Source: Candidatus Njordarchaeota archaeon (GTDB lineage Archaea; Asgardarchaeota; Njordarchaeia; Njordarchaeales; Panguiarchaeaceae). From it: DNA of 63,074 nucleotides. The notes below the pieces were generated by a model that saw only the letters and a program-made list of their open reading frames with translations, ran no database searches and was not told the origin of the DNA. Of the stretch, positions 2,172 through 60,133 are shown piece after piece (within the stretch, counting starts at the first letter, position 1; every line of letters begins with the position of its first letter). The stretch covers positions 1 through 63,074 of the forward strand of contig JAUQYS020000333.1 in NCBI GenBank assembly GCA_030587585.2. The letters are read 5' to 3'. Position numbers and translations under genes: made by a program.

Positions 2172-2185
2172 TATGTAGGTACATA
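2172..2185. promoter_or_regulatory. 14-bp palindrome TATGTAGGTACATA (copy 1 of 8)
   Basis: Perfect TATGTA/TACATA arms around GG core, 63 nt upstream of cca start, just after stop of 2187-2507. Confidence 0.6.
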
Positions 2186-2186
2186 G

Positions 2187-2507
2187 TTATTGTTTGTGTT
2201 TCTCGGCGGCTCTTTTTGCTGTTTCTAGATTGATTTCGTGTCCGTGTCCGACTGTTCCTTCTTTTCGCCATATTATGTGTGTGTATTTTAGTTTTTTCTT
2301 TGATTGTTCTTCTATGTTTTCGAGTAATCGGGATAGCTCTGTGCGAGTATCTTGTAGTGTTTCTATTATTCTTTTTATGAGTTCTCCTATTATGTCTATG
2401 TTCAGATAATATTCCTTATCTCCTGTTAGTGCTGCATAGTCCGTGGCTTCAAGAAACTCTATTGTTTTTTTCTTGAGCTGTTTAGCATCCTCAAAGATTT
2501 CTGACAA
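2187..2507 (-). CDS. hypothetical protein (106 aa from TTG; may start at ATG 2533-2535 across an A9 tract)
   Basis: ORF; only a TTG start without SD in frame, but GGAGGG + ATG lies upstream and is one base out of frame at homopolymer 2520-2528. Confidence 0.55.
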   Translation of the reverse strand: MSEIFEDAKQLKKKTIEFLEATDYAALTGDKEYYLNIDIIGELIKRIIETLQDTRTELSRLLENIEEQSKKKLKYTHIIWRKEGTVGHGHEINLETAKRAAEKHKQ

Positions 2508-2536
2508 AATGATATAAAATTTTTTTTTCGGACATT

Positions 2537-2827
2537 CTACATCCCTCCAATTATTCGCAGCCAGATGTGATATTCATGAACGAAAAAATATAAAAACACA
2601 ACAAAAAATATTAGCATTATGATTTTTTGCGTAAATCTTAGTCGCCGCAGAAGACGAACATATTGTTTTGCTATTTCGGGAATAACAAAGAAGACAAAAA
2701 CAAATAGGAGAATAAGAACTACGCCCACCAATCCGAAAAATATGCAGATCAGAGACACTACGAACGATACTATTGCCGATATGATAATATTTATGACTGT
2801 AGTATCTTGATTTCTTTCTTCTCGCAA
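2537..2827 (-). CDS. membrane protein (96 aa, about 3 TM segments)
   Basis: Hydrophobic segments; TTG start 9 nt after GGAGG. Confidence 0.55.
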   Translation of the reverse strand: MREERNQDTTVINIIISAIVSFVVSLICIFFGLVGVVLILLFVFVFFVIPEIAKQYVRLLRRLRFTQKIIMLIFFVVFLYFFVHEYHIWLRIIGGM

Positions 2828-2828
2828 A

Positions 2829-3107
2829 CTACTCAGCCTCCATCTGTTTTATCGAGATAAAATGTTTTTGCCATCGATCCACTGCCATCGCTAGTTTTCC
2901 AGGATCAATTTCCTGGTCAAGTATCACTCCGACTAGTTCCCATTCTTCGGTTCTTTGGATCTGCTCTGAGTCAATAGTCAGCTCTACATCAAATTCTTGG
3001 ATCGGATTATGTATCCATTTTGATGCGTCACTTATATTTGCTCGCCCAGCAATATAAGAGCCGTCCGGTCTTCTCCAGATGGTGATAACTTTTTTTCTTT
3101 TATGCAT
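2829..3107 (-). CDS. hypothetical protein (92 aa)
   Basis: ORF trimmed 12 nt to ATG 5 nt after GGTGA; cassette 3113-3135. Confidence 0.6.
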   Translation of the reverse strand: MHKRKKVITIWRRPDGSYIAGRANISDASKWIHNPIQEFDVELTIDSEQIQRTEEWELVGVILDQEIDPGKLAMAVDRWQKHFISIKQMEAE

Positions 3108-3112
3108 AGACA

Positions 3113-3135
3113 TCACCATTAATTAACTAAAAAAA
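3113..3135 (-). promoter_or_regulatory. intergenic cassette copy (TTTTTTTAGTTAATTAATGGTGA)
   Basis: Variant of T-run/TAA box/GGTGA upstream of ATG 3107. Confidence 0.55.
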
Positions 3136-3341
3136 TGTTCTTGTAGAGGAACAAATCCTCCATAGCAATATGCGTAGAAAAACATAAGAAGCACCAACAT
3201 GACTAAATAGAAAAACTGTAAATCGTAGCGATACTCTCGATAAGCATCGGGATGTTCTTCGCTTAGATAGACTGTGAAAAAAAATAGAGCCAAAGCCGCA
3301 AGAATCAGACATAAAATAATCATATCACAGCTGATACTCAT
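3123..3341 (-). CDS. small membrane protein (72 aa, 2 TM)
   Basis: Hydrophobic ORF; GGGAGG SD inside end of upstream gene. Confidence 0.5.
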   Translation of the reverse strand: MSISCDMIILCLILAALALFFFTVYLSEEHPDAYREYRYDLQFFYLVMLVLLMFFYAYCYGGFVPLQEHFFS

Positions 3342-4017
3342 ACATGCTCAGCCTCCCGATAGGCTTAAGATATACGAAGTTTTGCGAAACTAAGGAAATC
3401 TCAACAAAAACAATGTTGGAGTTCTCAATAACAAAATACTTCTGGGTTCGAAGTTTTGTTGGAATTCTATTTGGATCAATCAGTAGTTTTTGCCACGCTG
3501 GCGAGTAGAAATATGTCGAGTCTTTCTTTTTTAGTGGCATAACCTCACATGTAGTTGCTGATCGAATAGTAAATAGTAAAGCATCAGCCCATGATGGTTT
3601 TAGATCTTTTTCTATCCGCTTGATTTTTTGCCTTATTTTTTCGGTTTCCTCAAAAAGAGCACCACTAGAAATCGCCCGCCGCATCGCTTCCTCTAATTTT
3701 TTTCTTTTTCTCATTGTTTCCTCCTGCAACGGCAAATATCTCTTGTCCCTATTCTGGATTACTTGCCGTATTCTGCGGATTGTTTCTGGGCTGACCAAAA
3801 TATCTGCTAATAATTTCAGAATAGAGTCTACTGATCCTCCTTTTGCTTCTATGTATGTGTCAATTATATGTCTAAATATTGTGTGAAACTCGTACCAATA
3901 TCGCAGAATAAGAAGCTTATCGCTATCTCTTGTTTCTGGAAAATCCCGAAGAATAATTGCGACTCTTTGTTTCTTGTTTTTCATATCGCCTATAAGTTCT
4001 TTTATTTCGTCGCTCAT
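3325..4017 (-). CDS. hypothetical protein (230 aa)
   Basis: ORF trimmed to MSDEIKE ATG 4015-4017 after GGTGA; cassette 4023-4044. Confidence 0.65.
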   Translation of the reverse strand: MSDEIKELIGDMKNKKQRVAIILRDFPETRDSDKLLILRYWYEFHTIFRHIIDTYIEAKGGSVDSILKLLADILVSPETIRRIRQVIQNRDKRYLPLQEETMRKRKKLEEAMRRAISSGALFEETEKIRQKIKRIEKDLKPSWADALLFTIRSATTCEVMPLKKKDSTYFYSPAWQKLLIDPNRIPTKLRTQKYFVIENSNIVFVEISLVSQNFVYLKPIGRLSMYEYQL

Positions 4018-7138: not shown

Positions 7139-7464
7139 TCCGTGATCACCTCTATATCGTTTTCACCGCCTTTGCCTTTCATCATATTTTCGAGAATAAC
7201 AACATCTCTCTGGAATAGATCTAGCATGTCCTCAAGAGAGGCGATAAGTATGTCGAGTACCTTCACTAGTTTTTTTGATCTAGCTAGTTGCCGTTTTACT
7301 TGTAGCTGAAGATATGCCTCAACAAGCGGACGAGGTGGCGGAACATTTTTGAGAAGACCAAAGAGCTGTGGATTTCGGTTTTCTCTTAGCTTAATAAACG
7401 CTTGAAGCGTCTTCATAAAGTTTTCTTTAAATTTGGCTTCTGGAGAAAGCTCGGCAATACTCAT
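7135..7464 (-). CDS. hypothetical protein (109 aa), coupled to RNAP gene
   Basis: ORF; ATGA overlap with stop of 7461-10541. Confidence 0.6.
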   Translation of the reverse strand: MSIAELSPEAKFKENFMKTLQAFIKLRENRNPQLFGLLKNVPPPRPLVEAYLQLQVKRQLARSKKLVKVLDILIASLEDMLDLFQRDVVILENMMKGKGGENDIEVITE

Positions 7465-10400
7465 TTTTTACCACCATTCTCTAATTCATTTAATTTTTTA
7501 AGAAGATGACGTTTTCTTTTACTGACCTTAAAAATAAGTTTCTTGTATACCCTTGCCTGTGCCCCTTTTACGCCGCCCTCTTTGAGAATACCTTTTATAT
7601 GAGTGAGTAGTGCATTTAGCGTTTCGAGCTCCATTTCTATTTGTTTTTTGTTGAATTTTTCTTTTTCTTTGCCCTTGAAAAGTTTCTCTCCCGCTGTTAA
7701 AGAATATAATATCATGCGGTCGAGATATCTACGATCATCAAGCTCTAGACCTATTATCTGTGCTTCGTTCTTTATTTTTTTCTGCATAAATATCCGCAAT
7801 AACTGAGACTTTTTCTTTCCGATAAGCTCCTTTTCCACTTTCTTCAATTTGCGGTATGTTTCTATATCTCTTGTTTTTGCTTTCATTACCTGTTCGATAT
7901 CGAGAGCCTCATTGATTCTTGCTATATCAATGCTATATTTTTCTGGCAGTGGAACTAGAGTAAACATTTTTTTTCTAAGAGCACCATACTTCTTTATGTC
8001 CCTGTCGTCTTGCCGCCGTGTCTCTATATTATATTCTCTCACTGCTTTTGCTAATGCTTCATCATCCTTATACATAGTCATAATATCCGCATCAGATATC
8101 TCAAACTTGACTGGCTTAAGCTTCTTAAGGTCTTCTTTAGATAATTTTGGCATAAACTCTCTTGATAATGGCGGAACAAATAATGCTACTGTATCACCAT
8201 CAAAGTCGATAGTTGCTTTCTCAGCTGTTATCGGGTGCAGGCCGATAACATATTTATATTTTCCCGAATGATCGATACGCACTTTTAGAGTCAAAATACT
8301 GCTAGAAGTTGTTACTGGTTCTTTCCTAACAGTCACCAAGTCTCCTTCCTTGACGCCAAGTGCCTTTGCTGTCTCGGCATCAAGCAACACTTCATCGGGT
8401 GCTACATCTGCTGCTACTGCGTGGCGATCAATACCAAGCATGTATCTGGGTTTGAACATAAGCTCGTATATTCTCCGCAAAATAAATTTCCGCATGGGAT
8501 GAAAAGTGGCCTTTTTTTCTGCCTCCGACATCGAAGCATCGATCCCCATTTTTCGGACTTGTCCCTGATGATCGATGTAATAAAACTTAAGAAATAGAGG
8601 GATGTATATCTTCTTGTATGTCTTTGCTTTCTTTGTACCCCATGCAACCGTATGTTCATAGTCTATCACCTCTCCATACTCGTCAGGTTTTGGTTCTTTC
8701 TCATCAAGAACAAGACGATATTTGTGCGGGTCTTTGGGATCACGAACAAGCTTGAGGTGAAGTACCTTTAGTAATTGTTGGAGTTCTTTTCCAACAAAAT
8801 AAAATTGTTTCCATAACTTTTCTGGTTTCTCTTTTTCCAATGCACCCATAAGAAATGTCCAAGACATTTTGACTCCGTTCGAGGCATAGTTAGCGGCTAT
8901 ATGTTCTGGATCGGGAAAAATAAAAACATAGCCATCACCCATTTTTTGTTCCAAGAGAAGTGCTGCTTTTCTCTTGTTTAATTTTTTCTTGTATTCACGT
9001 ATAATAAGTTTTTCTTCTTCAGTAAGTTTTTTGCCATCCGCCTGCTTCAACATAAGTTCTTTTGCCTTTTTCTCTAACTCTTCGGGAATATCAGCCCAAA
9101 CATCAGTTGGATTCACATATATAATCGGCTCTTTTCCAGGAATAATATCCGTGACTACTCCCTTTATTCCCGTTCTGCTCATAATTTTATCGCCGACTTG
9201 AAGTTCAGCTTCTCGGATAATCACATATGGTCTGGTATAATATACTAGGCCATATTGCCGCACATGCTTCTTTGGTGGACCAAGCCAATGGACTTTTCCC
9301 TCAAAGGGAGAATATACGCTTGCGATACCTGTGCCTACATCCTTTAGAGGTACTGTTACTACGGGATCTCCTCTCTTTACGTATGTACCTTCTGGAACAA
9401 ACCCGTCCTCAGTAGCTGCGTATGCTTTCTTTTTTACTGATGTGAATACATATCTGAACTTTTTGGCTGCGGCTTTGGTTATGACTACTCCACCGCCATA
9501 CGTTTTTTTGAATAGTTTTGGAGCAAGAGCAAGTTTTAGTTTAAGATTTACGCCTTCACCAGCGATATCATTTCTTATTGCTGGGACTTTTGGAAATTCT
9601 CCATATAGAAGCTTCATTCTTCCCTTATTTTTTGCTATTGCATGAGCAGCTATCTGAAGCCTTTTTGGTGGCGAATAATTGTAGAACGGAATATTATATA
9701 CTGCTGGTGAAAAATGTTTAAATTTGCCATTTTCATCTATATCACATATCATTCTTTGCATACCTCTCTGTGTTTTATCGTTGCTCGCATAGGCTGGACA
9801 AAGTCTGATCTTTTTCAATTCATCAGGAATCATTTTTTCATAGACCATATCGCCAAATTCCCTAGCGATCTTTTTTTCTTCTGGAGTCGCCTTGACCGAG
9901 AACTTCGATACATCGCCACCCAACTCCTTGTATATTTTTTTTGCTTCTTCGAGTTCTTTTGGTGTGATGCTATATGCTGTGAGTATTGCTTCGTCGGGAA
10001 CCCCCTCTTTTAGGGACTTGAATATGCGCTTATATAGACGTTTTTGTTGTTCGATTGCTTTTACGTATAGGCTTCTGAGATTTCGGCGGATTATGTCGCC
10101 AAGAAAAATATACATTCTCAAATCTCCGAAACGCTCTGTGAATGGTACGACTGGGTCCCCTTTTCTGTGCGGGAGCAAACCGAGATATTCTGGCGAAAGA
10201 AAATCATTCATACCTAAATAAAAGGGTCTGAACTCCCGCTTTATATTTTCTAATGCCTGCATAGCGGCTTGTCTTTTTTTCTTAAAATGCATTCTGAGCT
10301 CGGAGATTTCCCGTTTATCTATTCTCTCGTTCTTGAGCAACTCATTTATTTCTGTGCGGGATATTCCAAGCCACTCTGTGAGCTTATTTTTCTTCATCCA

Positions 10401-15344: not shown

Positions 15345-15358
15345 TATGTATCTACATA
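15345..15358. promoter_or_regulatory. 14-bp palindrome TATGTATCTACATA (TC core)
   Basis: 18 nt upstream of ATG 15327, downstream of boundary repeat. Confidence 0.6.
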
Positions 15359-22944: not shown

Positions 22945-23200
22945 TTCTTTTCACCCCCTCGGCAAGATATGTAGCTACATACTTACGGATCTTATCTGCA
23001 CGCCTGTACAGATAAGACCCTCTAGGCAACATAGACAAAAAAACAGAAAAATCATCAAAAATTTTTTTGGGGTCTAATCGGCCCAAACAAACAAAAGTAT
23101 CAATTATGTCTTGCGTATCTATCCATGGGGCATCAAAAATAGATACAAAACCCCTTCTACGGGCAGCCATATTCAGCAACCGAATCGAAACACATCTCAT
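22934..23200 (-). CDS. hypothetical protein (88 aa)
   Basis: Trimmed to MRCVSIR ATG after GGTGAGG. Confidence 0.5.
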   Translation of the reverse strand: MRCVSIRLLNMAARRRGFVSIFDAPWIDTQDIIDTFVCLGRLDPKKIFDDFSVFLSMLPRGSYLYRRADKIRKYVATYLAEGVKRNES

Positions 23201-25414: not shown

Positions 25415-25428
25415 TATGTATCTACATA
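25415..25428. promoter_or_regulatory. 14-bp palindrome TATGTATCTACATA (TC core)
   Basis: 64 nt upstream of ATG 25351. Confidence 0.6.
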
Positions 25429-27536: not shown

Positions 27537-27654
27537 CCTTGATCAATGTAATGTAGATGTAGTGGCAACAAATACAGCCTCGAAGAAAGAAAAAAGAAAT
27601 AAAAGTCGCCGTGCGAAAAAATTTTTTCATACTTTTCACACCGCAAGAAGTGAA

Positions 27655-34825: not shown

Positions 34826-35044
34826 TTATATGTATGTTTCTTTTTCTTTCGGCTGGTTCCAAGATATCGGAACCGAGGATAGGATTTTCTGTGCGTCTTG
34901 GCGGATTTCTTTTCTGAATTTTTCTAGTGCAATTCGGATAGCGTAGCGAATAAATTCTGTTCTACTGACAAAATAGCCTTTCTCGCATAGCAAGTCAATC
35001 AAATGAATAATATTTTCAGGAATACGGATTGAAACAACTCTCAT
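34826..35044 (-). CDS. ribbon-helix-helix (CopG-like) transcription regulator (72 aa)
   Basis: MRVVSIRIPENIIHLIDLLCEKGYFVSRTEFIRYAIRIALEKF; trimmed 12 nt. Confidence 0.75.
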   Translation of the reverse strand: MRVVSIRIPENIIHLIDLLCEKGYFVSRTEFIRYAIRIALEKFRKEIRQDAQKILSSVPISWNQPKEKETYI

Positions 35045-38798: not shown

Positions 38799-39656
38799 TT
38801 ATCCCAAAAAAAGTGTAGAAAAAGATTCCAAAATTATTTTATTCGAATCTATCTCATCATATAGGAGAAAGGCTCTAGGCTCAAAACATTTATCATCTGA
38901 AAAAGGGATTAGTGGCTCTATTTGCGCTTGACTATCAAGCTCACTCATCCACCGCAACAATTTTTCATACACCACTATGCATCCTTTTATTTTTCCTTCC
39001 ACTTTTTCGGACATTGGAGGCTCATACAGTAACTCAAAAAGCTGTGTAGAGATCTCCCAATAATTATACATTGTTCGAAAGAATGCTTCTTTATTCAGAA
39101 ACGGACAGAAAAGACAGTTGCCGCTATGTTTTATTTTGCTGTATAGCGGATTTTGGGGGAGCCTTCTTTTTTCTATGTAGGTACATATTTCTTTTTTGGA
39201 CCATTCTGCTATTGGTGCTATGGCCCAAGACCGCCACAGATCAACGTATTGGTATTCTTTTATTAATTCGTATCGTTTTTGTCTATCGCTTCTTTTTACA
39301 CCCGTTATCATCAAAGATTTGGGATATTCTCTGGCTACTTGCCGCCAGACATCATATTTATGTCTTTGAGCACACCATCTCATCCCTGTGATATATGGAA
39401 AGCCCTTTTGTCTGAAATTCACGAATAAATTTTTATCTAGCCACGCAATTAGAAGATTTAAGTCATATTGTTCACAAATATCTTTGACATATTCTGTACA
39501 TTCGGGCGCTGTGTTTCCCTTTATGGGAGTGTAGAGAACGACAAATTTGTCTTTAGGAATACTCCTCGCAACAAGGTCAAGAACAACAAGAGAATCCTTG
39601 CCGCCACTAAACAAAACAAAAATATTATTGAATTTTCTTGTGTAGTGTCGTATCAT
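38799..39656 (-). CDS. PAPS reductase / PP-loop ATP pyrophosphatase family protein (285 aa; alternative start 39701)
   Basis: VLFSGGKDSLVVLDL PP-loop, C-terminal CLFCP cysteine pair; ORF-track N-terminus overlaps the upstream gene and was trimmed. Confidence 0.8.
   Translation of the reverse strand: MIRHYTRKFNNIFVLFSGGKDSLVVLDLVARSIPKDKFVVLYTPIKGNTAPECTEYVKDICEQYDLNLLIAWLDKNLFVNFRQKGFPYITGMRWCAQRHKYDVWRQVAREYPKSLMITGVKRSDRQKRYELIKEYQYVDLWRSWAIAPIAEWSKKEICTYIEKRRLPQNPLYSKIKHSGNCLFCPFLNKEAFFRTMYNYWEISTQLFELLYEPPMSEKVEGKIKGCIVVYEKLLRWMSELDSQAQIEPLIPFSDDKCFEPRAFLLYDEIDSNKIILESFSTLFLG
39174..39187. promoter_or_regulatory. 14-bp palindrome TATGTAGGTACATA (intragenic copy)
   Basis: Exact copy inside the PAPS-reductase-like gene. 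Confidence 0.5.
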
Positions 39657-42870: not shown

Positions 42871-42873
42871 CGT

Positions 42874-43306: not shown

Positions 43307-43320
43307 TATGTAGATACATA
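43307..43320. promoter_or_regulatory. 14-bp palindrome TATGTAGATACATA (GA core)
   Basis: Between cassette 43355-43376 and ATG 43284; lies inside a 22-codon mini-ORF 43281-43349. Confidence 0.6.
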
Positions 43321-53006: not shown

Positions 53007-53037
53007 AGGCTTTTCACCACCTCTTAACGAAAAAAAA

Positions 53038-53301: not shown

Positions 53302-53313
53302 TTTCACCACCAT

Positions 53314-53327
53314 TATGTAGGTACATA
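53314..53327. promoter_or_regulatory. 14-bp palindrome TATGTAGGTACATA
   Basis: Replaces the TAA box of the cassette, 13 nt upstream of ATG 53301. Confidence 0.6.
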
Positions 53328-53340
53328 TTTTTGTTTTTTG

Positions 53341-53997: not shown

Positions 53998-54037
53998 CCG
54001 TGTCACCGTATATAGCGAAAAAAAGTAAAACAAAAAA

Positions 54038-54619
54038 TCAGAACACGAGAACCTTCGTATATATCTGCGAGGAGAAATCTATAACACATATCATATACTT
54101 TGGGGCCGCTTTCTCAACTATATCTCGAACAAAAACAATTCCTCTTGTTGGTGTCCCCTCAAGAACAAAAATATGCATGTCTTTTGGCTTCATAGTATAA
54201 CTATCCTGATACGATATCTTTAGATCAGTCTTCTTTATCCGCTCCAAGAAATCTCTCCGATTACTAAAAAGCAAAACATGAATCAAAACACCCAAATATG
54301 CCAGTCTCTCAACAGGAATAGTCTCTTTTTTCGAAACAAACGCCACACGAGGAACTGGACACTTCTTAGACTTAAATATTTCTATCGAAGAGATTTCATA
54401 CTCATCAATTATCGTCTTTAGTTCTTCGAGAACACCAGAAAGAAGAATATTCTCATCCTCTCTGCCGCTATATTGTAACAACTTATTAAATAACACAACA
54501 GCCATATCTCCGGCCGATTTAGTTTCATAAACCTCTGATCCTGATGCACCTTCTTCATCCAAAACTACATATTTAACAGTACGGGACACAACACCAGCAA
54601 TTTCATTCTCCTTTTCCAT
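54038..54619 (-). CDS. hypothetical protein (193 aa)
   Basis: Trimmed to MEKENEI after GGTGA, removing the overlap with 54654-55019. Confidence 0.6.
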   Translation of the reverse strand: MEKENEIAGVVSRTVKYVVLDEEGASGSEVYETKSAGDMAVVLFNKLLQYSGREDENILLSGVLEELKTIIDEYEISSIEIFKSKKCPVPRVAFVSKKETIPVERLAYLGVLIHVLLFSNRRDFLERIKKTDLKISYQDSYTMKPKDMHIFVLEGTPTRGIVFVRDIVEKAAPKYMICVIDFSSQIYTKVLVF

Positions 54620-54653
54620 CCGACTCACCATAAAAACCCAAAAAAATAGAATT

Positions 54654-55019
54654 TTATTTCCCAGAAAATTTACTATTTTTATCCCAAAATACAGATAGAG
54701 GCAATAAGCCATCAGTTGTTTCGCCCCAAGCTTTATATTCGTTTTCTCGGGCCTCTTCTTCGCAACAACCAGCCACTTCGCCAAGTATCTCCCTAACTTT
54801 TTCTAGGGGCCTGATATATTTGTTAAATATTATGCAATTCTCGCAATCATAGTCCCAAAATTCACCTCTAGCCTCCATTGCTTCTTGTATTTCCCCACAA
54901 TGACAAAAATCCTTGCTTATATCGCTCAATAGCTTATCTATTGCATCTATGATACTGTCCAAGAGCTTAGCTCTATCTCTCCATTTTCTAGCCCTCTTGA
55001 TATATATATGTTCACTCAT
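54654..55019 (-). CDS. small Cys-rich protein (121 aa)
   Basis: FCHCGE...DCENCIIF cluster. Confidence 0.55.
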   Translation of the reverse strand: MSEHIYIKRARKWRDRAKLLDSIIDAIDKLLSDISKDFCHCGEIQEAMEARGEFWDYDCENCIIFNKYIRPLEKVREILGEVAGCCEEEARENEYKAWGETTDGLLPLSVFWDKNSKFSGK

Positions 55020-55305
55020 CTTCGCTCACCTCTTTTAACATTTTTATAAACCATTCTGTGTCTAGTCCTACAATAAAGTCATCATCAACTCTATGCAATG
55101 TACCCAGAAATTTTATGTTATGATTCTTCTCTGATAACTTCCGCAATAAATTTTTAGCTGCCTCGTAATCAATACCTATCTTTTCCGCTACCCTGAATAA
55201 TGGATAATAACCAACAATATGACGGCCTGAGATTACATATTCAAAAAGTCCGTCTTCCTTGAGCAACTCTGCAAATGCTAAAACTACTTTTTTCTCCTCA
55301 CCCAT
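55012..55305 (-). CDS. hypothetical protein (97 aa)
   Basis: ORF overlapping neighbours by 8 nt. Confidence 0.55.
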   Translation of the reverse strand: MGEEKKVVLAFAELLKEDGLFEYVISGRHIVGYYPLFRVAEKIGIDYEAAKNLLRKLSEKNHNIKFLGTLHRVDDDFIVGLDTEWFIKMLKEVSEDE

Positions 55306-55660
55306 CTCCGTTCACCTCTGACTCATCCGAAAATTGTGGAATCTTCATTAGTGCGTCTGAGAATAGACGTATTAATCTTAGTAGCTGTTCCTCGTCGGGA
55401 TATTCTGTCAGATCATCCCAAAAAGAAAAATCAGATATTACAATTTCCGCAATGTTGATGTGGTAGTTTATATCGGGATTATCAAAAAACAGCAACAATC
55501 TAATATCGCAATTCTTTAGTACCTCGGCAACAACAAAAAACTTATTATCCCTACTGTCAATCATATACATATCAACATTATACATCTTCCTAATCCAAAA
55601 ACAAGTTTTAAAGTGTTTCGCCAATATGGCCCTAACCTTATCACATTCATTGTCATCCAT
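55298..55660 (-). CDS. hypothetical protein (120 aa)
   Basis: Trimmed to MDDNECD after GGTGGGTGA. Confidence 0.55.
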   Translation of the reverse strand: MDDNECDKVRAILAKHFKTCFWIRKMYNVDMYMIDSRDNKFFVVAEVLKNCDIRLLLFFDNPDINYHINIAEIVISDFSFWDDLTEYPDEEQLLRLIRLFSDALMKIPQFSDESEVNGDG

Positions 55661-55691
55661 ATTCACCCACCACAGATATATCTGAAAAAAA

Positions 55692-55892
55692 TTATATTTC
55701 AGCAAGCTTAGACTCAATGCACTCCTTGATAAACTCCAATTCTTCTTTTACCCAGTCTTCAGATTCTTCAGTCAATAACTCTTCTACCTCATCTAATAAA
55801 TCCAAAAGTAAAGATCTTCTCTCGAACTTATATCCCTTCCCAATGTCTTCGAGCCTTCTTTTTAAGGAATTAATCATCTCGATCTTTTTCAT
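55692..55892 (-). CDS. acidic helical protein (66 aa)
   Basis: ATGA overlap with the upstream stop. Confidence 0.5.
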   Translation of the reverse strand: MKKIEMINSLKRRLEDIGKGYKFERRSLLLDLLDEVEELLTEESEDWVKEELEFIKECIESKLAEI

Positions 55893-56482
55893 TTTGTCCA
55901 CCCAAATTCTTTTGGAATATTCTTTATTTTCTTGCTTTTTGACTTATTGGCAAGAGTTTTGAAAATTTCTATAAAATGTTCTTTCAAAGCTGGGTGTACC
56001 TTCTCTGCAAGACTTAAAACCTTAGATATACACTCTTTGAGTGTTTCAATACTGGTAACATAGGCAAAATAGTCAAAGTCCTTAAAAAGCCAAGACGAAC
56101 GAACTATCCAGTCGCCCGCAAGCATGCAATAAGCCTCTAGCTTTGGTGAAAGATCCATACCCGTGCCTCCAAGCGCTAAATAGAAATCATCGCCATACCA
56201 GAAAGGTATCAGGCCACATTTAATGGCTATAATTTTATCTGGCACATGTGGCTGAAACCATGTACAATGCAACATAATCCCCTTAAGCGCCTCTTCTCTT
56301 GCATCATCCATATCTCCATCTTCCTCATCAGCAAAACTGTTCAGAACACATTCTGGAATCTCGATACTGTCAATATCTATTTCTTCCAGACAAATATTTT
56401 TCTTCTCAAAGAATCCATCAATATTATTGGTAATATATTTTATGGCCCTAAAAATAGCATCAACAATTTCCTTTTTCTCCAT
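55889..56482 (-). CDS. hypothetical protein (197 aa)
   Basis: ORF; cassette 56489-56510. Confidence 0.6.
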   Translation of the reverse strand: MEKKEIVDAIFRAIKYITNNIDGFFEKKNICLEEIDIDSIEIPECVLNSFADEEDGDMDDAREEALKGIMLHCTWFQPHVPDKIIAIKCGLIPFWYGDDFYLALGGTGMDLSPKLEAYCMLAGDWIVRSSWLFKDFDYFAYVTSIETLKECISKVLSLAEKVHPALKEHFIEIFKTLANKSKSKKIKNIPKEFGWTK

Positions 56483-56488
56483 TTGGAT

Positions 56489-56510
56489 TCACCACTTATT
56501 AGCGAAAAAA
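56489..56510 (-). promoter_or_regulatory. intergenic cassette copy (TTTTTTCGCTAATAAGTGGTGA)
   Basis: Upstream of ATG 56482. Confidence 0.65.
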
Positions 56511-56512
56511 TT

Positions 56513-56866
56513 TTACCACGTATACACAACAATAAATCCACAGGATACCCATACCAACAATTGCCATAACCAGCCCTCCATAATCCTCCATTCATGTTTG
56601 CTCAGTTCTTCTTGGGACTCTTCTAATGAGATATCCATCCTCGAAGCAACAATAAGTGGTTTAATCAGCGGCACCAGTATGTGTTTAATCAAGTTCTGTT
56701 TCTGATTCATAACTTTATCATAAGGAATCCCTTCCTCAGCGGCGTCTTCAATGGACTCAACAACGGGGATATACTCATTTATATCCTTTCCAAGAACACG
56801 ATTAATTATTTCAGCATAGCGACTAAATGAATTGAATAAGCCATCATTATCACCATGTAGGTACAT
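56513..56866 (-). CDS. hypothetical protein (117 aa), start codon inside the palindrome
   Basis: Trimmed to MYLHGDND; ATG 56864-56866 lies within CATGTAGGTACATA; no SD. Confidence 0.5.
   Translation of the reverse strand: MYLHGDNDGLFNSFSRYAEIINRVLGKDINEYIPVVESIEDAAEEGIPYDKVMNQKQNLIKHILVPLIKPLIVASRMDISLEESQEELSKHEWRIMEGWLWQLLVWVSCGFIVVYTW
56853..56866. promoter_or_regulatory. 14-bp palindrome variant CATGTAGGTACATA
   Basis: 13 of 14 match to the consensus, 5 nt after the stop of 56871-57239. Confidence 0.5.
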
Positions 56867-56870
56867 AGTT

Positions 56871-57239
56871 CTATTCGTTCGCATTCTGCATCATCAAAAT
56901 TGTCCATTTGAGCGAATCAACCGTTTCGGCTATTTCCTCTAGAAGCCTTTTTATTTCTTCTGCTTTTCCAATTATTCCGTCTATTGCTTCTTTTTCTGCC
57001 GATTTGTTTTTCAGTCCAGCTACTAGGTCAAGTATGCTTACTGATTGTTGGCCGAATAGATCATTATGTAGTTCTTTTGGAATAACTAAGATACGGCCAC
57101 CGACATAGATTCTTATGATCGAATCATCAAATTTTTTGAGAAAATCGTTCAATGCTTTGTCGGGATCTTGATCTTCCTCAAGAACAAGTTTTTCTCTTTT
57201 CACAACACCCAATATTTCTACGATTATTTCCCTTTTCAT
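56871..57239 (-). CDS. hypothetical protein (122 aa)
   Basis: Trimmed 12 nt; cassette-like 57245-57268. Confidence 0.55.
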   Translation of the reverse strand: MKREIIVEILGVVKREKLVLEEDQDPDKALNDFLKKFDDSIIRIYVGGRILVIPKELHNDLFGQQSVSILDLVAGLKNKSAEKEAIDGIIGKAEEIKRLLEEIAETVDSLKWTILMMQNANE

Positions 57240-57272
57240 ACGGACCACCAAAAATAAACTGAAAAAAATGAA

Positions 57273-58403
57273 TTATAGTAATATGTTTTCTTGTCTTAGT
57301 GTTTCCCTAAATTCGTAGAAGAATTCCGACAAAAATTTCTTTCTCTTCGATTGTCTGCGTATCCATCTGTACAGGAAAGAATATTTTTGAAGATGCCTAT
57401 TCAAAGCTACTGCGATCCTATGGGGCTGTCTCCCGAGAAAAAGTCCAGCTTCGTAAAGCGTTCTTGTTCTAAGAAAAGTTAAAAGCATCAATGTATCAGG
57501 ATTCTTTGCTATATGCTCAATATTTACTTCTGATAGCGAGTACTGCAGAAAATATTTCACAAAATTTGCGAATATTTTTTTTCGTACATCAAGAACTTTT
57601 TCTTTAACACTACTGAGATCCGATAATGTAATGGGCATATATGCTCGGCCATTTCTTCTTGTTAAAGCCGGTAGTGATAGTGTCCAGCCAAGAAAGCGTC
57701 TGATAATAGGTATATACGACTGCTGTAATGGCTTCTTATTTTTAGCATCATATATCATCTCGATTATTTCTGTAATTCTAACAAAGATATCCAGGGAAAC
57801 ACTGTCTATTAGCGGACACTTCATCCTACTTTGAGGAAATGCTTTGCTGAAAGCCATAAATAGCTCAGAGAAAAGCGTAGCCAAGCGCCAGAGATCTGCA
57901 CTTTTTTTCGCCGCCAAGTTTTTATAAATAAAAACCCTGAAAACATCATCCATACATAAAAATAAGTGCCTATAACCAAGCATAGATGTTATTCCGTCTT
58001 GGATCATCTCATAAAGAGAACGACAACCGATTATTTTTTTATAGCCCCATCGCTTTCTAACAAACCCAACAGCCCGCATATACAGCAAAGCAATAAAAAT
58101 AGCCTGAAGAAGAGGAACTGATACGTAACATTCTTTGGCAAACCCTCGTAATTCTAATATCTGAACAGGAGAAAAACATATCGCATATCTATTTTTCTCA
58201 TAGGCGTTATTAAGAATTTTACCTAACGGTTCCCAAACACCCTTCTCTCTAAATACAAGATATTCACTCATAAACTGTGCTACATGCCAAGCATATCTCT
58301 CAAACGGAAACGGAGCACGTGCAGCTATATCCAATAACCGTCCTTCAGAATCAGGAGAATTTTTTCGCCAGAAAGAAAAATATTTGCCAAAACGATACAT
58401 CAT
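57273..58403 (-). CDS. hypothetical protein (376 aa)
   Basis: Long ORF; cassette 58407-58430. Confidence 0.65.
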   Translation of the reverse strand: MMYRFGKYFSFWRKNSPDSEGRLLDIAARAPFPFERYAWHVAQFMSEYLVFREKGVWEPLGKILNNAYEKNRYAICFSPVQILELRGFAKECYVSVPLLQAIFIALLYMRAVGFVRKRWGYKKIIGCRSLYEMIQDGITSMLGYRHLFLCMDDVFRVFIYKNLAAKKSADLWRLATLFSELFMAFSKAFPQSRMKCPLIDSVSLDIFVRITEIIEMIYDAKNKKPLQQSYIPIIRRFLGWTLSLPALTRRNGRAYMPITLSDLSSVKEKVLDVRKKIFANFVKYFLQYSLSEVNIEHIAKNPDTLMLLTFLRTRTLYEAGLFLGRQPHRIAVALNRHLQKYSFLYRWIRRQSKRKKFLSEFFYEFRETLRQENILL

Positions 58404-58406
58404 TTC

Positions 58407-58430
58407 TCACCACCTATTGACGAAAAAAAA
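58407..58430 (-). promoter_or_regulatory. intergenic cassette copy (TTTTTTTTCGTCAATAGGTGGTGA), last copy before the 58.4-62.9 kb operon
   Basis: Upstream of ATG 58403. Confidence 0.65.
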
Positions 58431-58438
58431 GGATTATT

Positions 58439-58756
58439 TTATCTAATTTTTTTCAAAATCTTCACAAAAACCGATCGGTAAACATCCCAACAACATTTTT
58501 CTCTTTCCTCTACCTCATCAAACAGTCTATGAATCTTTTCCCAGATCTCGTATGGCAAAGATTCGACACCAAGTATGCTCGCTACTTTCTTTCTCAAATC
58601 ATAATCATCATTAGCCAAAACCATAAGAACAACCACAATAGATCTGTATACCTCGGCAAGAAACTCTTTTAACTCCCGATTATTGTATGAAGACCCCAAT
58701 ATTGCGAGCCAGGTAATAAAGAAGAAAAAATAAAGCACACTATCCTCCACATTCAT
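58439..58756 (-). CDS. hypothetical protein (105 aa)
   Basis: ORF at the distal end of the coupled operon. Confidence 0.55.
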   Translation of the reverse strand: MNVEDSVLYFFFFITWLAILGSSYNNRELKEFLAEVYRSIVVVLMVLANDDYDLRKKVASILGVESLPYEIWEKIHRLFDEVEEREKCCWDVYRSVFVKILKKIR

Positions 58757-58761
58757 CGCCT

Positions 58762-58956
58762 CTAAGATGATTCTAAATCACGCATAAGCCATTCATAATC
58801 ATCCAATGGTTCTTCGTATTCTTCATCGTTCTCAAATATGCATTCTTGACAATCCATCGCTGCACAATGGCAAACAGGACAAACAAAATCACATTCAATT
58901 GGGCACCAAACCAACTGTGCCCCACATTTCTTGCATCTAAATTTGTCCATCTTCAT
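58762..58956 (-). CDS. zinc-ribbon protein (64 aa)
   Basis: CKKCG...CPVCHC...CQEC cysteine pairs, acidic tail. Confidence 0.6.
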   Translation of the reverse strand: MKMDKFRCKKCGAQLVWCPIECDFVCPVCHCAAMDCQECIFENDEEYEEPLDDYEWLMRDLESS

Positions 58957-58957
58957 C

Positions 58958-59140
58958 CTACTCACTACTTTTTATTATTTCTCCAATAATCACAAGCAGA
59001 TAAGCAAGCCAGAAAATGGACCCAATTAGTTGTGCATCTTCGACAGATACTTTTTGCTGCAGTATCACCATTGCTAGGACAAACACAATGCAAGAAGCCA
59101 TAATCAACATACCACCCATCAATCTTTTGGAATCACTCAT
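58958..59140 (-). CDS. small membrane protein (60 aa)
   Basis: Trimmed to MSDSKRL after GGTGATGAGG; 2 TM. Confidence 0.45.
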   Translation of the reverse strand: MSDSKRLMGGMLIMASCIVFVLAMVILQQKVSVEDAQLIGSIFWLAYLLVIIGEIIKSSE

Positions 59141-59354
59141 CCTCATCACCAACATATAAAATAACCAGAGACCTATACAAAAGTGCAGCAAAATCTATTG
59201 AATTAAGCAACAGATCTATTATTTTTCTTAGAACCTCTCTCGCCTTTATCGAATCATCCTCAGAAATTGTCTTACTGAACTCCCGTTTGCTTTTCTCTAA
59301 CTCCTCAATTATATGGTCTAAATGCTTGACATATTTTTGAATAATTTCATGCAT
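59133..59354 (-). CDS. hypothetical protein (73 aa)
   Basis: Overlapping starts and stops with neighbours. Confidence 0.5.
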   Translation of the reverse strand: MHEIIQKYVKHLDHIIEELEKSKREFSKTISEDDSIKAREVLRKIIDLLLNSIDFAALLYRSLVILYVGDEDE

Positions 59355-59601
59355 GTTGCTTCACCTTCACCTCAAAATAATTATTTTTTACTGTCTCTCT
59401 CGCATTTTCTATTTTTGAGACTGCCGTGCGAATATCTGGTTCTATTCTCTTAAAAATACAGCAGTCCGAACAGAAAACGTTGCAGTAGTAACTAAAATTT
59501 CTTTTTGTGCATGTTACGCATCTCTCAGCTATGTCAAGCAAAATACTTTGCAGAAGATTAATACATTGCTCCATTTTCTCCAAAAGTTCTTTCTTATTCA
59601 T
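59347..59601 (-). CDS. small Cys-rich protein (84 aa)
   Basis: Trimmed to MNKKELLEK after GAGGTG; CVTC...CNVFCSDCCIF. Confidence 0.5.
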   Translation of the reverse strand: MNKKELLEKMEQCINLLQSILLDIAERCVTCTKRNFSYYCNVFCSDCCIFKRIEPDIRTAVSKIENARETVKNNYFEVKVKQHA

Positions 59602-60133
59602 TTTTCTGCACCTCAAACTGAAGAAAAACCTCAACAAAAGCCGTCGCTTTATTGTCCTCTACCTCAATAATAGGACCAGCCTCCATACAGACAAGAAGAA
59701 AACCCGTCTGTCTATACAACAAATCCAGATGATATATCAACTTGATCAAATCCACGGGGCTTTCGCTTCTGAACAACACTACTAGCTCGTCGGGATCTAC
59801 TGACTCTATCTCGACATAGTCATACAACTTCTTTATTACATTCACAACCATATCCAAAAATTTTTTATCTGTCGGTTTCTTTTCGGCCCTCATATTCTCA
59901 CCATGCTTACCAAAAAAAGCACAATTTTGCATGAAAAAAGTATACGCACCAACAAACACTTTTGCGATCTCTTTTAGCTTCTTTCGGTCATTATCATCAA
60001 TAAACCAACCGTCCTCAATCCCAACGTAGCTCCGAATAATTCGATCTAAATCACATAATGCCTTGCCAAGACGAGAAAGCAAATCTATGTAGGTACATAC
60101 TTCTTTTCTATATTTCGGATTATTGACCATCAT
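59594..60133 (-). CDS. hypothetical protein (179 aa)
   Basis: ATGA overlap upstream; contains palindrome 60086-60099. Confidence 0.6.
   Translation of the reverse strand: MMVNNPKYRKEVCTYIDLLSRLGKALCDLDRIIRSYVGIEDGWFIDDNDRKKLKEIAKVFVGAYTFFMQNCAFFGKHGENMRAEKKPTDKKFLDMVVNVIKKLYDYVEIESVDPDELVVLFRSESPVDLIKLIYHLDLLYRQTGFLLVCMEAGPIIEVEDNKATAFVEVFLQFEVQKNE
60086..60099. promoter_or_regulatory. 14-bp palindrome TATGTAGGTACATA (intragenic)
   Basis: Exact copy near the 5' end of 59594-60133. Confidence 0.5.

What the first reader, a model, noticed from the sequence alone, without database searches (positions are those of the whole stretch)
2172..60099. 14-bp palindrome TATGTAG[G/A]TACATA present eight times, with an asymmetric 2-bp core
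Copies found:
- Exact TATGTAGGTACATA at 2172-2185, 39174-39187, 53314-53327 and 60086-60099.
- CATGTAGGTACATA at 56853-56866.
- Core variant TATGTAGATACATA at 43307-43320.
- The opposite orientation, TATGTATCTACATA, at 15345-15358 and 25415-25428.
Five copies sit 13-64 nt upstream of starts (2109, 15327, 25351, 43284, 53301). Where the motif overlaps ORFs it is read in different frames (MYLH at the 56866 start, CTYI in 59594-60133), so conservation is at the DNA level. Tandem half-sites ATGTA-ATGTAG-ATGTAG occur at 27545-27561, just downstream of the recombinase operon.
Two readings are possible. (a) It is an operator for one of the six RHH proteins or the wHTH protein. (b) Six-bp arms around an asymmetric dinucleotide also match the layout of serine-recombinase crossover sites. 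The TC-core copies (15345, 25415) are inverted relative to the GA-core copy (43307), and 25415/43307 bracket the recombinase gene.
Basis: seen in the sequence. Interest (0 to 1): 0.68.

Follow-up and report, generated by a model that had tools for sequence, protein, structure and literature searches.

The report
Conserved 14-bp palindrome, probable operator
A 14-base palindrome recurs ten times in a roughly 65-kb virus-like genome (probably of an archaeon), mostly in the tiny gaps in front of genes. It is most likely the docking site of a dimeric gene regulator, not a recombination site.

Summary
TATGTA-NN-TACATA occurs 8 times exactly and once with one mismatch in the window, against 0.01 expected. 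A tenth exact copy lies in 2.3 kb that another assembly adds beyond the window's right end.

Five of nine copies lie wholly in the 6% of the window that is non-coding. Seven sit within 70 nt upstream of a start codon or overlap one. A relative with 87% DNA identity keeps the copy it covers unchanged, inside a leader far more conserved than the adjoining gene.

Only the 14 bp plus an upstream AA are conserved, the arms are perfectly symmetric, and the distance to genes varies. The RNA hairpin is weak. This favours a DNA site for a dimeric regulator (confidence about 0.5). The binder is not identified.

The serine-recombinase reading is not supported. Conservation is confined to the inner 6-7 bp, six identical copies are in direct orientation, and a second assembly is collinear across eight sites.

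Context matters. The element encodes its own single-chain two-barrel RNA polymerase and carries about 30-45 copies of a second, asymmetric upstream cassette. The palindrome sits where that cassette is missing, so a second promoter class remains a live rival (about 0.2).

The parts
2172..2185 (-). Palindrome copy. On the gene strand it reads TATGTACCTACATA (CC core). It starts 1 nt after the stop of ORF 2187-2507 and lies 62 nt upstream of ATG 2109 (CCA-adding/poly(A) polymerase-like gene). A TATA-like TTTATATT and T-runs lie between it and the gene.
15345..15358 (-). Palindrome copy. Gene strand TATGTAGATACATA (GA core). It is intergenic, preceded by a T-run, and lies 17 nt upstream of ATG 15327. 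It heads the gene string 59 aa, 1114 aa, 414 aa, 1026-aa RNA polymerase, 109 aa, 69 aa, 561 aa.
22968..22981 (.). TATGTAGCTACATA (GC core) is a perfect 14-bp palindrome. It lies in the last codons of ORF 22934-23200, 23 nt upstream of ATG 22944. It heads the gene string 22944 to 15396.
25415..25428 (-). Palindrome copy. Gene strand TATGTAGATACATA. It is intergenic, downstream of T-runs, and 63 nt upstream of ATG 25351, with a TATA-like box between. It heads the block that lacks the class A cassette.
39174..39187 (-). Palindrome copy inside the PAPS-reductase-like gene (38799-39743), read I-C-T-Y-I. It lies about 390 nt upstream of tRNA-Tyr.
43307..43320 (-). Palindrome copy. Gene strand TATGTATCTACATA (TC core). 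It lies 22 nt upstream of ATG 43284, downstream of a complete class A cassette, and inside a 22-codon mini-ORF (43281-43349). All 14 bases are identical in a relative with 87% DNA identity.
53314..53327 (-). Palindrome copy (CC core). It fills a 39-nt intergenic gap that has no T-run or class A cassette. It abuts the Shine-Dalgarno sequence GGTGGTGA, 12 nt upstream of ATG 53301.
56854..56867 (-). One-mismatch copy. Gene strand TATGTACCTACATG. It starts 3 nt after the stop of gene 56871-57239. The ATG at 56866 inside it is one of two candidate starts of ORF 56513-56884.
60086..60099 (-). Palindrome copy (CC core) 34 nt inside ORF 59594-60133, read V-C-T-Y-I.
27545..27561 (-). Possible variant. 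Three tandem half-sites CTACAT-CTACAT-TACAT on the gene strand, 7 nt upstream of the Shine-Dalgarno sequence of gene 27117-27536. Membership is uncertain because the period is 5-6 nt, not 7.
34826..35044 (-). Candidate trans factor, by inference only. A 72-aa ribbon-helix-helix protein that passes the Pfam RHH_1 and RHH_8 cut-offs. A partial paralogue lies at 36054-36242.
61058..61276 (-). Candidate trans factor, by inference only. A 72-aa ribbon-helix-helix protein (Pfam RHH_1, 21.4 bits against a 20.5 cut-off), in the same gene string as copy 60086.

Best explanation
The palindrome is a DNA-level binding site (operator or upstream site) for a symmetric dimeric DNA-binding regulator. The regulator is most likely encoded by the element itself, with a ribbon-helix-helix or HTH protein as the natural candidate.

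Each site consists of two abutting 7-bp half-sites. One is always the perfect TATGTAG. The other is TATGTA[C/T/G].

The sites define a small regulon of about 7-8 transcription units that lack the element's main upstream cassette ('class A'). These include the three long gene strings of the conserved core, which carry the giant adhesin-like protein and the element's own RNA polymerase.

Binding next to or over the Shine-Dalgarno/start region would gate transcription of the gene behind it (15345, 22968, 43307, 53314, 56854). Binding about 30 nt upstream of a TATA-like box would also gate transcription (2172, 25415).

Shown: the non-randomness, symmetry, placement and conservation. Inferred: that a protein binds, which protein it is, and whether the effect is repression or activation.
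For: (1) Counts: 8 exact copies and 1 one-mismatch copy against 0.01 expected. The family drops abruptly to chance at 2-3 mismatches. A tenth exact copy turned up in 2.3 kb of new sequence from the same element.

(2) Information content is confined to the 14 bp, plus AA at positions -2 and -1 and weakly T-rich 3' flanks. Both 6-bp arms are invariant and exactly symmetric. Every site holds one perfect heptad TATGTAG. That is the signature of a two-fold symmetric reader.

(3) Placement: 5 of 9 copies are wholly non-coding, although only 6.3% of the window is non-coding (P = 1e-4). Seven of 9 are within 70 nt upstream of a start codon or overlap one.

(4) The centre-to-ATG distances are about 12, 19.5, 24.5, 29.5, 30.5, 70 and 70 nt. 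The site can lie before or after T-runs, and at 43307 it lies after a complete class A cassette. This variation is typical of regulator sites rather than core promoters.

(5) The RNA hairpin is weak, typically -1.7 kcal/mol, and 5 of 9 copies fold no better than shuffles. Recognition is therefore at the DNA level.

(6) Conservation: in the 86.7%-identical relative L016/L017 the 101-nt leader holding copy 43307 has 3 substitutions and 1 indel. The adjoining CDS differs at 14% of positions and at 26% of third positions (P = 2e-4 and 3.5e-10). The 14-mer and its core are unchanged. The indel right after the palindrome breaks the mini-ORF frame, so the peptide is not what is conserved.

(7) RHH regulators are encoded in the element.

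(8) Distant relatives (44% protein identity) lack this motif. L001 carries its own palindrome, [C/G]AAAAATTTTT[G/C], five times plus one A4T5 variant in 23 kb of 55%-GC DNA, four of the six in the non-coding gaps between genes in the syntenic core. This fits a lineage-specific site co-evolving with its factor.
Against: No binder is identified. No palindrome sits directly upstream of an RHH gene.

The 135-aa protein encoded right behind copy 43307 has an HTH-like stretch. Its model is poor (pLDDT 56) and the fold search found nothing.

All six CC-core copies have the same orientation relative to the genes. The upstream AA is present in 8 of 9 copies while the downstream flank is less regular. 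This hints at an oriented function.

The conserved leader in the relative is conserved as a whole, so the palindrome is not singled out there. On its own, 14/14 identity has P of about 0.015 at the third-position rate.

Two copies are deep inside genes and the tenth copy has no obvious gene behind it.
Confidence: 0.5

Rival explanations
1. The palindrome is a second promoter or initiator class. It would be a temporal-class ('late') promoter element read by the element's own two-barrel RNA polymerase, or by the host polymerase with a specificity factor. It would contrast with the abundant class A cassette.
For: The element encodes a single-chain polymerase with a beta-like GDKIMSRTGIKG motif and a beta'-like DFDGD motif.

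Class A cassettes are abundant: 29 matches against 0.56 expected, 28 of 29 on the gene strand. They are nearly absent from 26 kb down to 5.2 kb, where three palindromes head the three gene strings.

In two short gaps (53314 and 56854) the palindrome occupies the place of the class A cassette directly against the Shine-Dalgarno sequence.

The gene-proximal half is CTACATA in 8 of 10 copies, and all six CC-core copies are co-oriented.

Phage P23-45 provides a precedent of two promoter motifs for two two-barrel polymerases (PMC10770324).
Against: Perfect dyad symmetry is not expected for an asymmetric polymerase.

The distance to the start codon ranges from overlap to 70 nt.

Copy 43307 lies downstream of a complete class A cassette. 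Copy 2172 has T6 and T8 runs between it and its gene. Two copies are intragenic, and the tenth has no gene within about 75 nt.

The overall orientation bias is not significant (8 of 10).
Confidence: 0.2
2. The copies are another DNA-level architectural site. They could be loading or centromere-like sites for a partition, packaging, replication or nucleoid protein, scattered along the genome.
For: The copies are spread fairly evenly over the genome, 2.4-13.8 kb apart. Some are intragenic.

The tenth copy opens a roughly 600-nt GT-rich non-coding region next to iterons and a wHTH-like gene that may mark an origin.

A very basic 120-aa protein is encoded right behind copy 22968.
Against: The strong bias to the 6% non-coding DNA and to positions directly in front of starts is not expected for parS-like or packaging sites. 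No ParB- or terminase-like protein was detected in the proteins scanned.
Confidence: 0.1
3. The element acts at the RNA level. A small hairpin next to the ribosome-binding site would serve as a translational operator, processing site or terminator.
For: Five copies lie 0-14 nt from a Shine-Dalgarno sequence. Five are followed by a T-rich tract. The single arm mismatch (56854, A to G) would still allow a U-G pair. Three copies with extended flanks fold better than shuffles.
Against: The typical hairpin is a 5-bp A-U-rich stem of -1.7 kcal/mol, and 5 of 9 copies are no better than shuffles. There are no compensatory changes, because the arms are invariant. The loop (core) varies.
Confidence: 0.06
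4. The copies are crossover sites of the small serine recombinase (27870-28532), giving inversion (25415 x 43307) or deletions.
For: A resolvase/invertase-type gene with a catalytic Ser and a C-terminal HTH is present. The sites have a 2-bp core between inverted arms. Copies 25415 and 43307 are inverted relative to each other, share the GA/TC core, match at 25 of 28 positions, and bracket the recombinase gene (repeat I7).
Against: Only the inner 6-7 bp of each arm is conserved across copies. Known resolvase/invertase sites have 12-13-bp arms whose outer part is read by the HTH (established knowledge of gamma-delta res and hix/gix).

The flank similarity of the pair is 11/14 in the inverted alignment against 8/14 in the direct alignment. 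That difference is explained by the shared A-rich/T-rich flanks.

Six identical CC-core copies in direct orientation would delete essential DNA.

The nearest copy is 2.4 kb from the gene.

GC skew is uniform.

The JGI fragments L018 and L020-L023 are collinear with the window across eight sites.
Confidence: 0.04

Closest known systems
Ribbon-helix-helix operator systems. Examples are omega of pSM19035 (abutting 7-bp heptads in direct or inverted orientation), Arc, MetJ and CopG, and the archaeal-virus regulators SvtR (SIRV1), AvtR (AFV6) and F55 (SSV1). These are cited from my own knowledge.
   Same: They are short symmetric or repeated sub-sites read by a dimer. There are several sites per genome, in front of genes. 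They are encoded by small mobile elements or viruses that carry several RHH genes. The two abutting 7-bp half-sites resemble an inverted pair of omega heptads.
   Different: No binding was shown here. No site lies directly upstream of an RHH gene. The sequence is unrelated to any published operator that I know of.
Winged-helix BlaI/MecI/CopY repressors with the TACA-NN-TGTA dyad (PMC7253601, seen)
   Same: These are 10-14-bp dyads built from TACA/TGTA tetramers around a 2-bp spacer, bound by a dimer next to promoters.
   Different: The half-sites are in the opposite order here (TGTA-NN-TACA). Those are bacterial proteins, and no BlaI- or CopY-like protein was found in the proteins scanned.
Promoter classes of viruses with their own two-barrel RNA polymerases. 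[quoted passage not shown] The T7, phiKZ and AR9 classes are cited from my own knowledge.
   Same: The element encodes its own polymerase, has two distinct recurring upstream motifs, and one motif marks a separate block of genes.
   Different: Known viral promoters are asymmetric and sit at a fixed distance from the transcription start. This motif is a perfect palindrome at variable distance.
Crossover sites of small serine recombinases (res site I, hix, gix). Cited from my own knowledge.
   Same: They have a 2-bp asymmetric core between inverted arms, and a resolvase-type gene is present.
   Different: The conserved arms here are half as long. The conserved part is the inner part, not the outer. 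There are ten scattered copies, most of them in direct orientation. There is no sign of rearrangement.

Membership tests
Operator or binding site of a dimeric transcription regulator | Conserved dyad symmetry of the site | tested here: met
   Both 6-bp arms are invariant and exactly complementary in 8 of 9 copies, with one mismatch in the ninth.
Operator or binding site of a dimeric transcription regulator | Non-random occurrence concentrated in regulatory (5') regions | tested here: met
   The count is 8-9 copies against 0.01 expected. Five of 9 are wholly in the 6.3% non-coding DNA (P = 1e-4). Seven of 9 are within 70 nt upstream of a start or overlap one.
Operator or binding site of a dimeric transcription regulator | A cognate DNA-binding protein is encoded and linked to the site | tested here: inconclusive
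   RHH proteins are present, but none is adjacent to a site. The 135-aa protein behind copy 43307 gave a poor model and no fold match. The wHTH-like 423-aa protein has its own iterons.
Operator or binding site of a dimeric transcription regulator | Conservation of the site in related elements | tested here: met
   The one copy that could be compared (43307) is 14/14 identical in the 87%-identical relative, within a leader under strong constraint. Relatives at 44% protein identity lack the motif, and one has a different palindrome.
Operator or binding site of a dimeric transcription regulator | Demonstrated protein binding and an effect on transcription | not testable with these tools
   This needs EMSA, footprinting or reporter assays.
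Small serine recombinase crossover site (res, hix, gix) | A serine recombinase is encoded | tested here: met
   Pfam Resolvase at 1.4e-27, the catalytic motif YIRVSTKEQ, and PDB hits to a resolvase and a DNA invertase.
Small serine recombinase crossover site (res, hix, gix) | 12-13-bp inverted arms with conserved outer positions around a 2-bp core | tested here: not met
   Information content is confined to positions 1-7 from the centre. Beyond the 14 bp, the flanks show only AA and A/T richness.
Small serine recombinase crossover site (res, hix, gix) | Number and orientation of sites compatible with viable products | tested here: not met
   Six identical CC-core copies are in direct orientation, spread over more than 60 kb.
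Small serine recombinase crossover site (res, hix, gix) | Rearrangement junctions at the core | tested here: not met
   The JGI fragments are collinear with the window across eight sites. This compares consensus assemblies only, and they may come from the same sample. Read-level data were not available.
Core promoter of a virus-encoded RNA polymerase | A virus-encoded polymerase is present | tested here: met
   A 1026-aa protein carries GDK..SR.G.KG and DFDGD motifs. Profile hits cover the beta and beta' double-psi barrels.
Core promoter of a virus-encoded RNA polymerase | An asymmetric motif at a fixed distance and in one orientation upstream of the transcribed gene | tested here: not met
   The motif is symmetric. 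The distance to the start codon ranges from overlap to 70 nt. Orientation by core is 8 of 10, which is not significant.
Archaeal BRE/TATA core promoter | An A/T-only 8-bp box centred about 26 nt upstream of the transcription start | tested here: inconclusive
   The arms contain G/C. The spacing to the Shine-Dalgarno sequence and ATG is too short in five copies for a leader that includes the Shine-Dalgarno sequence. No transcription start data exist.
Intrinsic terminator or structured RNA element | A stable hairpin supported by covariation | tested here: not met
   The typical energy is -1.7 kcal/mol. Five of 9 copies fold no better than shuffles. There is no covariation because the arms are invariant. 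Rfam finds only the tRNA.

The most novel reading that the evidence does not exclude
The window belongs to a very rare group of probable archaeal (possibly Asgard) virus-like elements that encode their own single-chain two-barrel RNA polymerase. In this reading the palindrome is the switch element or second promoter class of a two-tier, virus-autonomous transcription programme. The class A cassette would drive about 45 early units. The palindrome would drive or gate the conserved late core, including the polymerase gene itself.
Probability: 0.2. Interest if true: 0.8.

Novelty: new member of a known kind. Interest (0 to 1): 0.52.

Why it matters
If the palindrome is an operator, it defines a compact regulon that can be tested directly. 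That regulon includes the element's own RNA polymerase operon, in a lineage where almost every protein has no known function. It gives experimenters a 14-bp bait for pulling out the regulator.

Together with the abundant class A cassette it outlines a two-class gene-expression programme. The host is probably an archaeon. Archaeal viruses were long reported to encode no RNA polymerase ("none of these ... encode a detectable viral RNAP", PMC5123050). Sorting out which polymerase reads which signal would therefore show how such an element transcribes itself.

Tried and rejected
- Megablast of 25 kb against the phage and plasmid collections found no match.
- Pfam and PHROGs scans of about 70 proteins left most without a family. 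No capsid, terminase, TBP or TFB was found.
- Searches for relatives through the polymerase found only about 6 contigs at no more than 45% identity. None has the palindrome.
- A scan of IMG/VR with the class A consensus gave only single, chance-like hits.
- The AlphaFold model of the polymerase was too poor for a fold search (pLDDT 51.5).
- The model of the 135-aa protein behind copy 43307 was also poor (pLDDT 56.5) and gave no significant PDB match.
- One cluster member (L024) turned out to be unrelated.
- The 88-aa ORF that contains copy 22968 looked RHH-like by eye (MRCVSIRL) but has no significant similarity to the RHH paralogues.
- Single half-sites (CTACATA/TATGTAG) are not enriched outside the palindromes.
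- I first placed the start of gene 56513 at 56848. That is out of frame, and the candidate starts are 56866 or 56884.
- T-runs alone as terminators: they are hugely enriched in the gaps between genes, but they are not avoided inside genes (76 seen; my own estimate from base composition is about 28 expected). Their role stays open.

Full report
**1. The observation**

TATGTAGRTACATA gives 7 exact matches where dinucleotide-preserving shuffles give 0.01. Leaving the core free gives 8 exact copies: 2172, 15345, 22968, 25415, 39174, 43307, 53314 and 60086. There is one one-mismatch copy at 56854-56867.

At 2-3 mismatches the list looks like chance, so this is a sharply bounded family.

Nearly all genes lie on the minus strand. 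On that strand the cores read CC five times, GA twice, GC once and TC once.

Each site can be described as two abutting heptads. One is always the perfect TATGTAG and the other is TATGTA[C/T/G].

**2. What kind of genome this is**

The window is a whole 63,074-nt contig. It has no near match among deposited phages or plasmids, and most of its proteins match no family.

Proteins that could be recognised:
- a CCA-adding/poly(A) polymerase-like enzyme (823-2109)
- an RNA ligase (37745-38599)
- a PAPS-reductase-like protein
- an AAA ATPase
- a CAAX-protease-like membrane protein
- a small serine recombinase (27870-28532)

A host from the Archaea is inferred from three lines of evidence:
- The element's tRNA-Tyr (38708-38783) has a short variable arm and a C1-G72 pair. 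This is the archaeal/eukaryal type, by established knowledge of tRNA-Tyr identity.
- Relatives encode a PriL-like primase subunit, PolB and a Rad51-like ATPase.
- One relative's contig is binned in a Candidatus Njordarchaeota MAG.

The 1026-aa protein (7461-10541) is a single-chain two-barrel RNA polymerase. It has a beta-like GDKIMSRTGIKG motif and an invariant beta'-like DFDGD motif. Profile hits cover the double-psi barrels of beta/Rpb2 and beta'/NRPE1, and the tape-measure-fused polymerase of phage P23-45. The family is rare: 15 representatives at E < 1e-30 among 1.84 billion.

**3. A second, much more abundant signal**

On the gene strand the consensus is ttcttTTTTTTTCGtTAATatgT-GGTGA-N5-7-ATG. 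I call this the class A cassette.

A loose pattern finds 29 copies against 0.56 expected, 28 of them on the gene strand. A weight matrix finds 29 on the gene strand and none on the other strand. Looser variants bring the total to about 45.

Almost every gap of 26-50 nt between genes from 59 kb down to 29 kb consists of this cassette and nothing else.

A class-A-like element ends 9 nt before the 5' end of the tRNA, and T8-CG follows its 3' end. So the cassette is at least partly a transcription signal and not only a ribosome-binding site.

Its geometry is ambiguous. The T-run centre lies about 25 nt from the ATG and the TAAT element about 17 nt. That fits neither a canonical archaeal TATA promoter with a leader that contains the Shine-Dalgarno sequence nor a sigma-70 promoter. 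Which polymerase reads it is unknown.

**4. Where the palindrome sits**

Only 6.3% of the window is non-coding, yet 5 of 9 copies are wholly non-coding (P = 1e-4). Two more lie at gene junctions:
- 22968 lies in the last codons of one ORF, 23 nt before the next ATG.
- 56854 starts 3 nt after a stop codon and contains a candidate ATG.

Two copies are truly intragenic (39174 and 60086).

The block from 25.4 kb down to 5.2 kb has almost no class A cassette (one weak hit). Its three gene strings are headed by copies 25415, 22968 and 15345.

This block is the conserved core of the lineage. Seven of its genes, including the adhesin-like giant protein, the polymerase and a 561-aa protein, are syntenic with relative L001.

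In the class-A-rich region the palindrome takes the place of the cassette in two short gaps that have no T-run (53314 and 56854). At 43307 it lies downstream of a complete cassette, inside a 22-codon mini-ORF.

At 2172 and 25415 it lies about 70 nt before the ATG, with a TATA-like box about 30 nt downstream of it.

The position relative to other signals is therefore heterogeneous.

**5. Extent and symmetry**

Information content is confined to the 14 bp, plus AA at positions -2 and -1 (8 of 9 copies), an A-rich 5' flank and a weakly T-rich 3' flank. The arms are exactly symmetric.

Counting the tenth copy, the gene-proximal half is CTACATA in 8 of 10 copies, which is not significant. All six CC-core copies are co-oriented, however. 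I record that as evidence against a purely symmetric function.

**6. RNA or DNA**

The transcript would form only a 5-bp A-U-rich stem, typically -1.7 kcal/mol. Five of 9 copies fold no better than shuffles. There is no covariation, and Rfam finds only the tRNA. Recognition at the DNA level is the better reading.

**7. Conservation**

Distant relatives (44% identity or less in the polymerase) have no copy of the motif.

L001 (55% GC) has its own palindrome, [C/G]AAAAATTTTT[G/C], five times plus one A4T5 variant in 23 kb. Four of the six lie in the non-coding gaps between genes and two lie inside a gene. Because these contain T5, they could also be terminators or TATA boxes, so the parallel is only a lead.

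Closer relatives were found through the 135-aa protein behind copy 43307:
- L016 and L017, from two ENA samples, are 86.7% identical in DNA and cover 42739-43428.
- There the 101-nt leader (class A cassette, mini-ORF and palindrome) has 3 substitutions and 1 indel. The CDS differs at 14% of positions and at 26% of third positions (P = 2e-4 and 3.5e-10).
- The 14-mer and its TC core are unchanged.
- The indel directly after TACATA shifts the mini-ORF frame, so the peptide is not what is conserved.

The whole leader is conserved, though, not the palindrome alone.

**8. A second assembly and a tenth copy**

JGI sample 3300005099 holds the same element at 99.99-100% identity, as fragments:
- L023 covers window positions 1-3981.
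- One 40-kb contig, read as L020 and L021, covers 15486-49656.
- L018 covers 52780-57327.
- L022 covers 57281-63074.

These fragments are collinear with the window across eight of the nine sites. I could not establish whether the two assemblies are independent.

L022 continues 2,267 nt beyond the window's right end, across a 7-N scaffold gap. That extension carries four more class A cassettes and a tenth exact TATGTACCTACATA, preceded by AAAAAAAC. The copy lies 40 nt after a stop codon, at the start of a roughly 600-nt GT-rich non-coding region.

**9. Candidate binders**

Pfam supports RHH folds for 34826-35044 and 61058-61276, and weakly for 36054-36242. ORF 46395-46631 on the plus strand looks RHH-like by eye.

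The 423-aa protein (61593-62864) has a wHTH-like N-terminus by eye, with no Pfam hit. Its gene start is flanked by six copies of a different repeat, TATTCCAAAAA; the window holds seven against 0.23 expected. That makes those repeats, not the palindrome, its likely target. This step is inference.

The 135-aa protein behind copy 43307 has an HTH-like stretch, but the model and the fold search were uninformative.

**10. Verdict on mechanism**

The best reading is a DNA operator or upstream site for a symmetric dimeric regulator. It would control the transcription units that lack the class A cassette, including the conserved core with the polymerase operon (confidence 0.5).

The main rival is a second promoter class linked to the element's own polymerase (0.2). 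For it: the site is complementary to class A, and the CC-core copies are co-oriented. Against it: the dyad symmetry and the variable spacing.

Other rivals:
- an architectural DNA site, 0.1
- an RNA hairpin, 0.06
- serine-recombinase crossover sites, 0.04

Recombination is disfavoured for these reasons:
- The conserved part of each arm is too short and is the inner part, not the outer.
- The extra flank similarity of the 25415/43307 pair (repeat I7) is 11/14 in the inverted alignment against 8/14 in the direct alignment. The shared A/T-rich flanks explain that difference.
- Direct repeats of identical sites would delete essential DNA.
- Nothing in GC skew or in the second assembly suggests rearrangement.

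**11. Novelty**

A palindromic operator is a known kind of thing. This one is a new member with an unrelated sequence, in an almost uncharacterised lineage.

The context raises the interest: a probable archaeal element with its own two-barrel polymerase and two classes of cis signals. As of 2016, none of about 150 sequenced archaeal viruses encoded a detectable RNA polymerase (PMC5123050). I did not establish whether that still holds.

Noticed in passing
window 7461-10541 (-): A 1026-aa single-chain two-barrel RNA polymerase. It has a beta-like GDKIMSRTGIKG motif (aa 450-461) followed by a beta'-like DFDGD motif (aa 779-783). Only about 15 family members exist at E < 1e-30 in 1.84 billion representatives, and one homologue carries an intein. 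The host is probably an archaeon, which would be unusual for an archaeal virus-like element.
   Followed up: partly
window, about 45 sites on the minus strand, e.g. 31414-31435, 34675-34696, 43355-43376, 52542-52563; also L022 655-683, 870-897, 1174-1205, 1447-1477: The class A intergenic cassette, TTTTTTTCG-tTAAT-N3-T-GGTGA-N5-7-ATG. It fills nearly every 26-50-nt gap between genes in the 59-29 kb region (29 matches against 0.56 expected, 28 of 29 on the gene strand). Its geometry fits neither a canonical archaeal TATA promoter nor a sigma-70 promoter. It may be the promoter of the element's own polymerase.
   Followed up: partly
window 38708-38783 (-), with 823-2109 and 37745-38599: A tRNA-Tyr of the archaeal/eukaryal type (C1-G72 pair, short variable arm, encoded CCA). 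A class-A-like element precedes it and T8-CG follows it. The element also encodes a CCA-adding enzyme and an RNA ligase. Together these look like a tRNA-repair set.
   Followed up: partly
window starts 2109, 31955, 35422, 35805, 36070, 36783 (-): Six otherwise different proteins, including the CCA-adding enzyme, share the N-terminus MSF[V/A]SK[K/R]K. Three of them start at TTG behind GGTGATATCATTG. This may be a targeting or packaging tag.
   Followed up: no
window 62924-63050 (+) and 62468-62541 (-): Iterons TATTCCAAAAA: four upstream of the wHTH-like 423-aa gene (61593-62864) and two, inverted, inside it. A seventh copy is at 48439-48449 (7 in the window against 0.23 expected). Together with the GT-rich non-coding region just beyond the window end, this may mark an origin and initiator, or an autoregulated gene.
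   Followed up: partly
L022 1-2274 (beyond the window's right end): The element continues at least 2.3 kb past the window, across a 7-N scaffold gap. The extension has five or six more small genes, a roughly 600-nt GT-rich non-coding stretch and a tenth palindrome. No terminal repeat or circular overlap was found in the window itself.
   Followed up: partly
window 27540-29500: The only region with plus-strand genes. Three ORFs (28680-29498) are transcribed divergently from the resolvase operon. The region has no class A cassettes. There is a 10-bp palindrome ACATTAATGT (28560-28569) and an ATCTC-N-GAGAT dyad upstream of the resolvase. It may be an inserted or separately controlled module.
   Followed up: partly
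L001 3495, 9961, 13803, 14631, 18311, 22698: A distant relative (55% GC) carries its own palindrome, [C/G]AAAAATTTTT[G/C], five times plus one A4T5 variant in 23 kb. Four of the six lie in the non-coding gaps between genes, including the gap before the polymerase gene, and two lie inside the 536-aa gene.
   Followed up: partly
window 43281-43349 (-): A 22-codon mini-ORF behind a perfect class A cassette contains palindrome 43307 and ends in ATGA, overlapping the next start. Its frame is broken in the 87%-identical relative although the DNA is almost unchanged.
   Followed up: yes
window 46395-46631 (+): An RHH-like 78-aa ORF on the opposite strand, in an unusually long (284-nt) gap between minus-strand genes. 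It has a weak PHROG hit to a transcriptional repressor.
   Followed up: no
L005 (= L008), contig JAHKLH010000169.1: A 4-kb contig encoding a 43%-identical polymerase is binned in a Candidatus Njordarchaeota MAG. Its GC content (36%) is close to that of the window (37%). This is a lead to the host lineage.
   Followed up: no
window 16048-16232 / 17792-17976 and 62457-62610: A 185-nt repeat at 72% identity links two neighbouring genes as paralogues. There is also a low-complexity K/Q/P-rich repeat inside the 423-aa gene.
   Followed up: no
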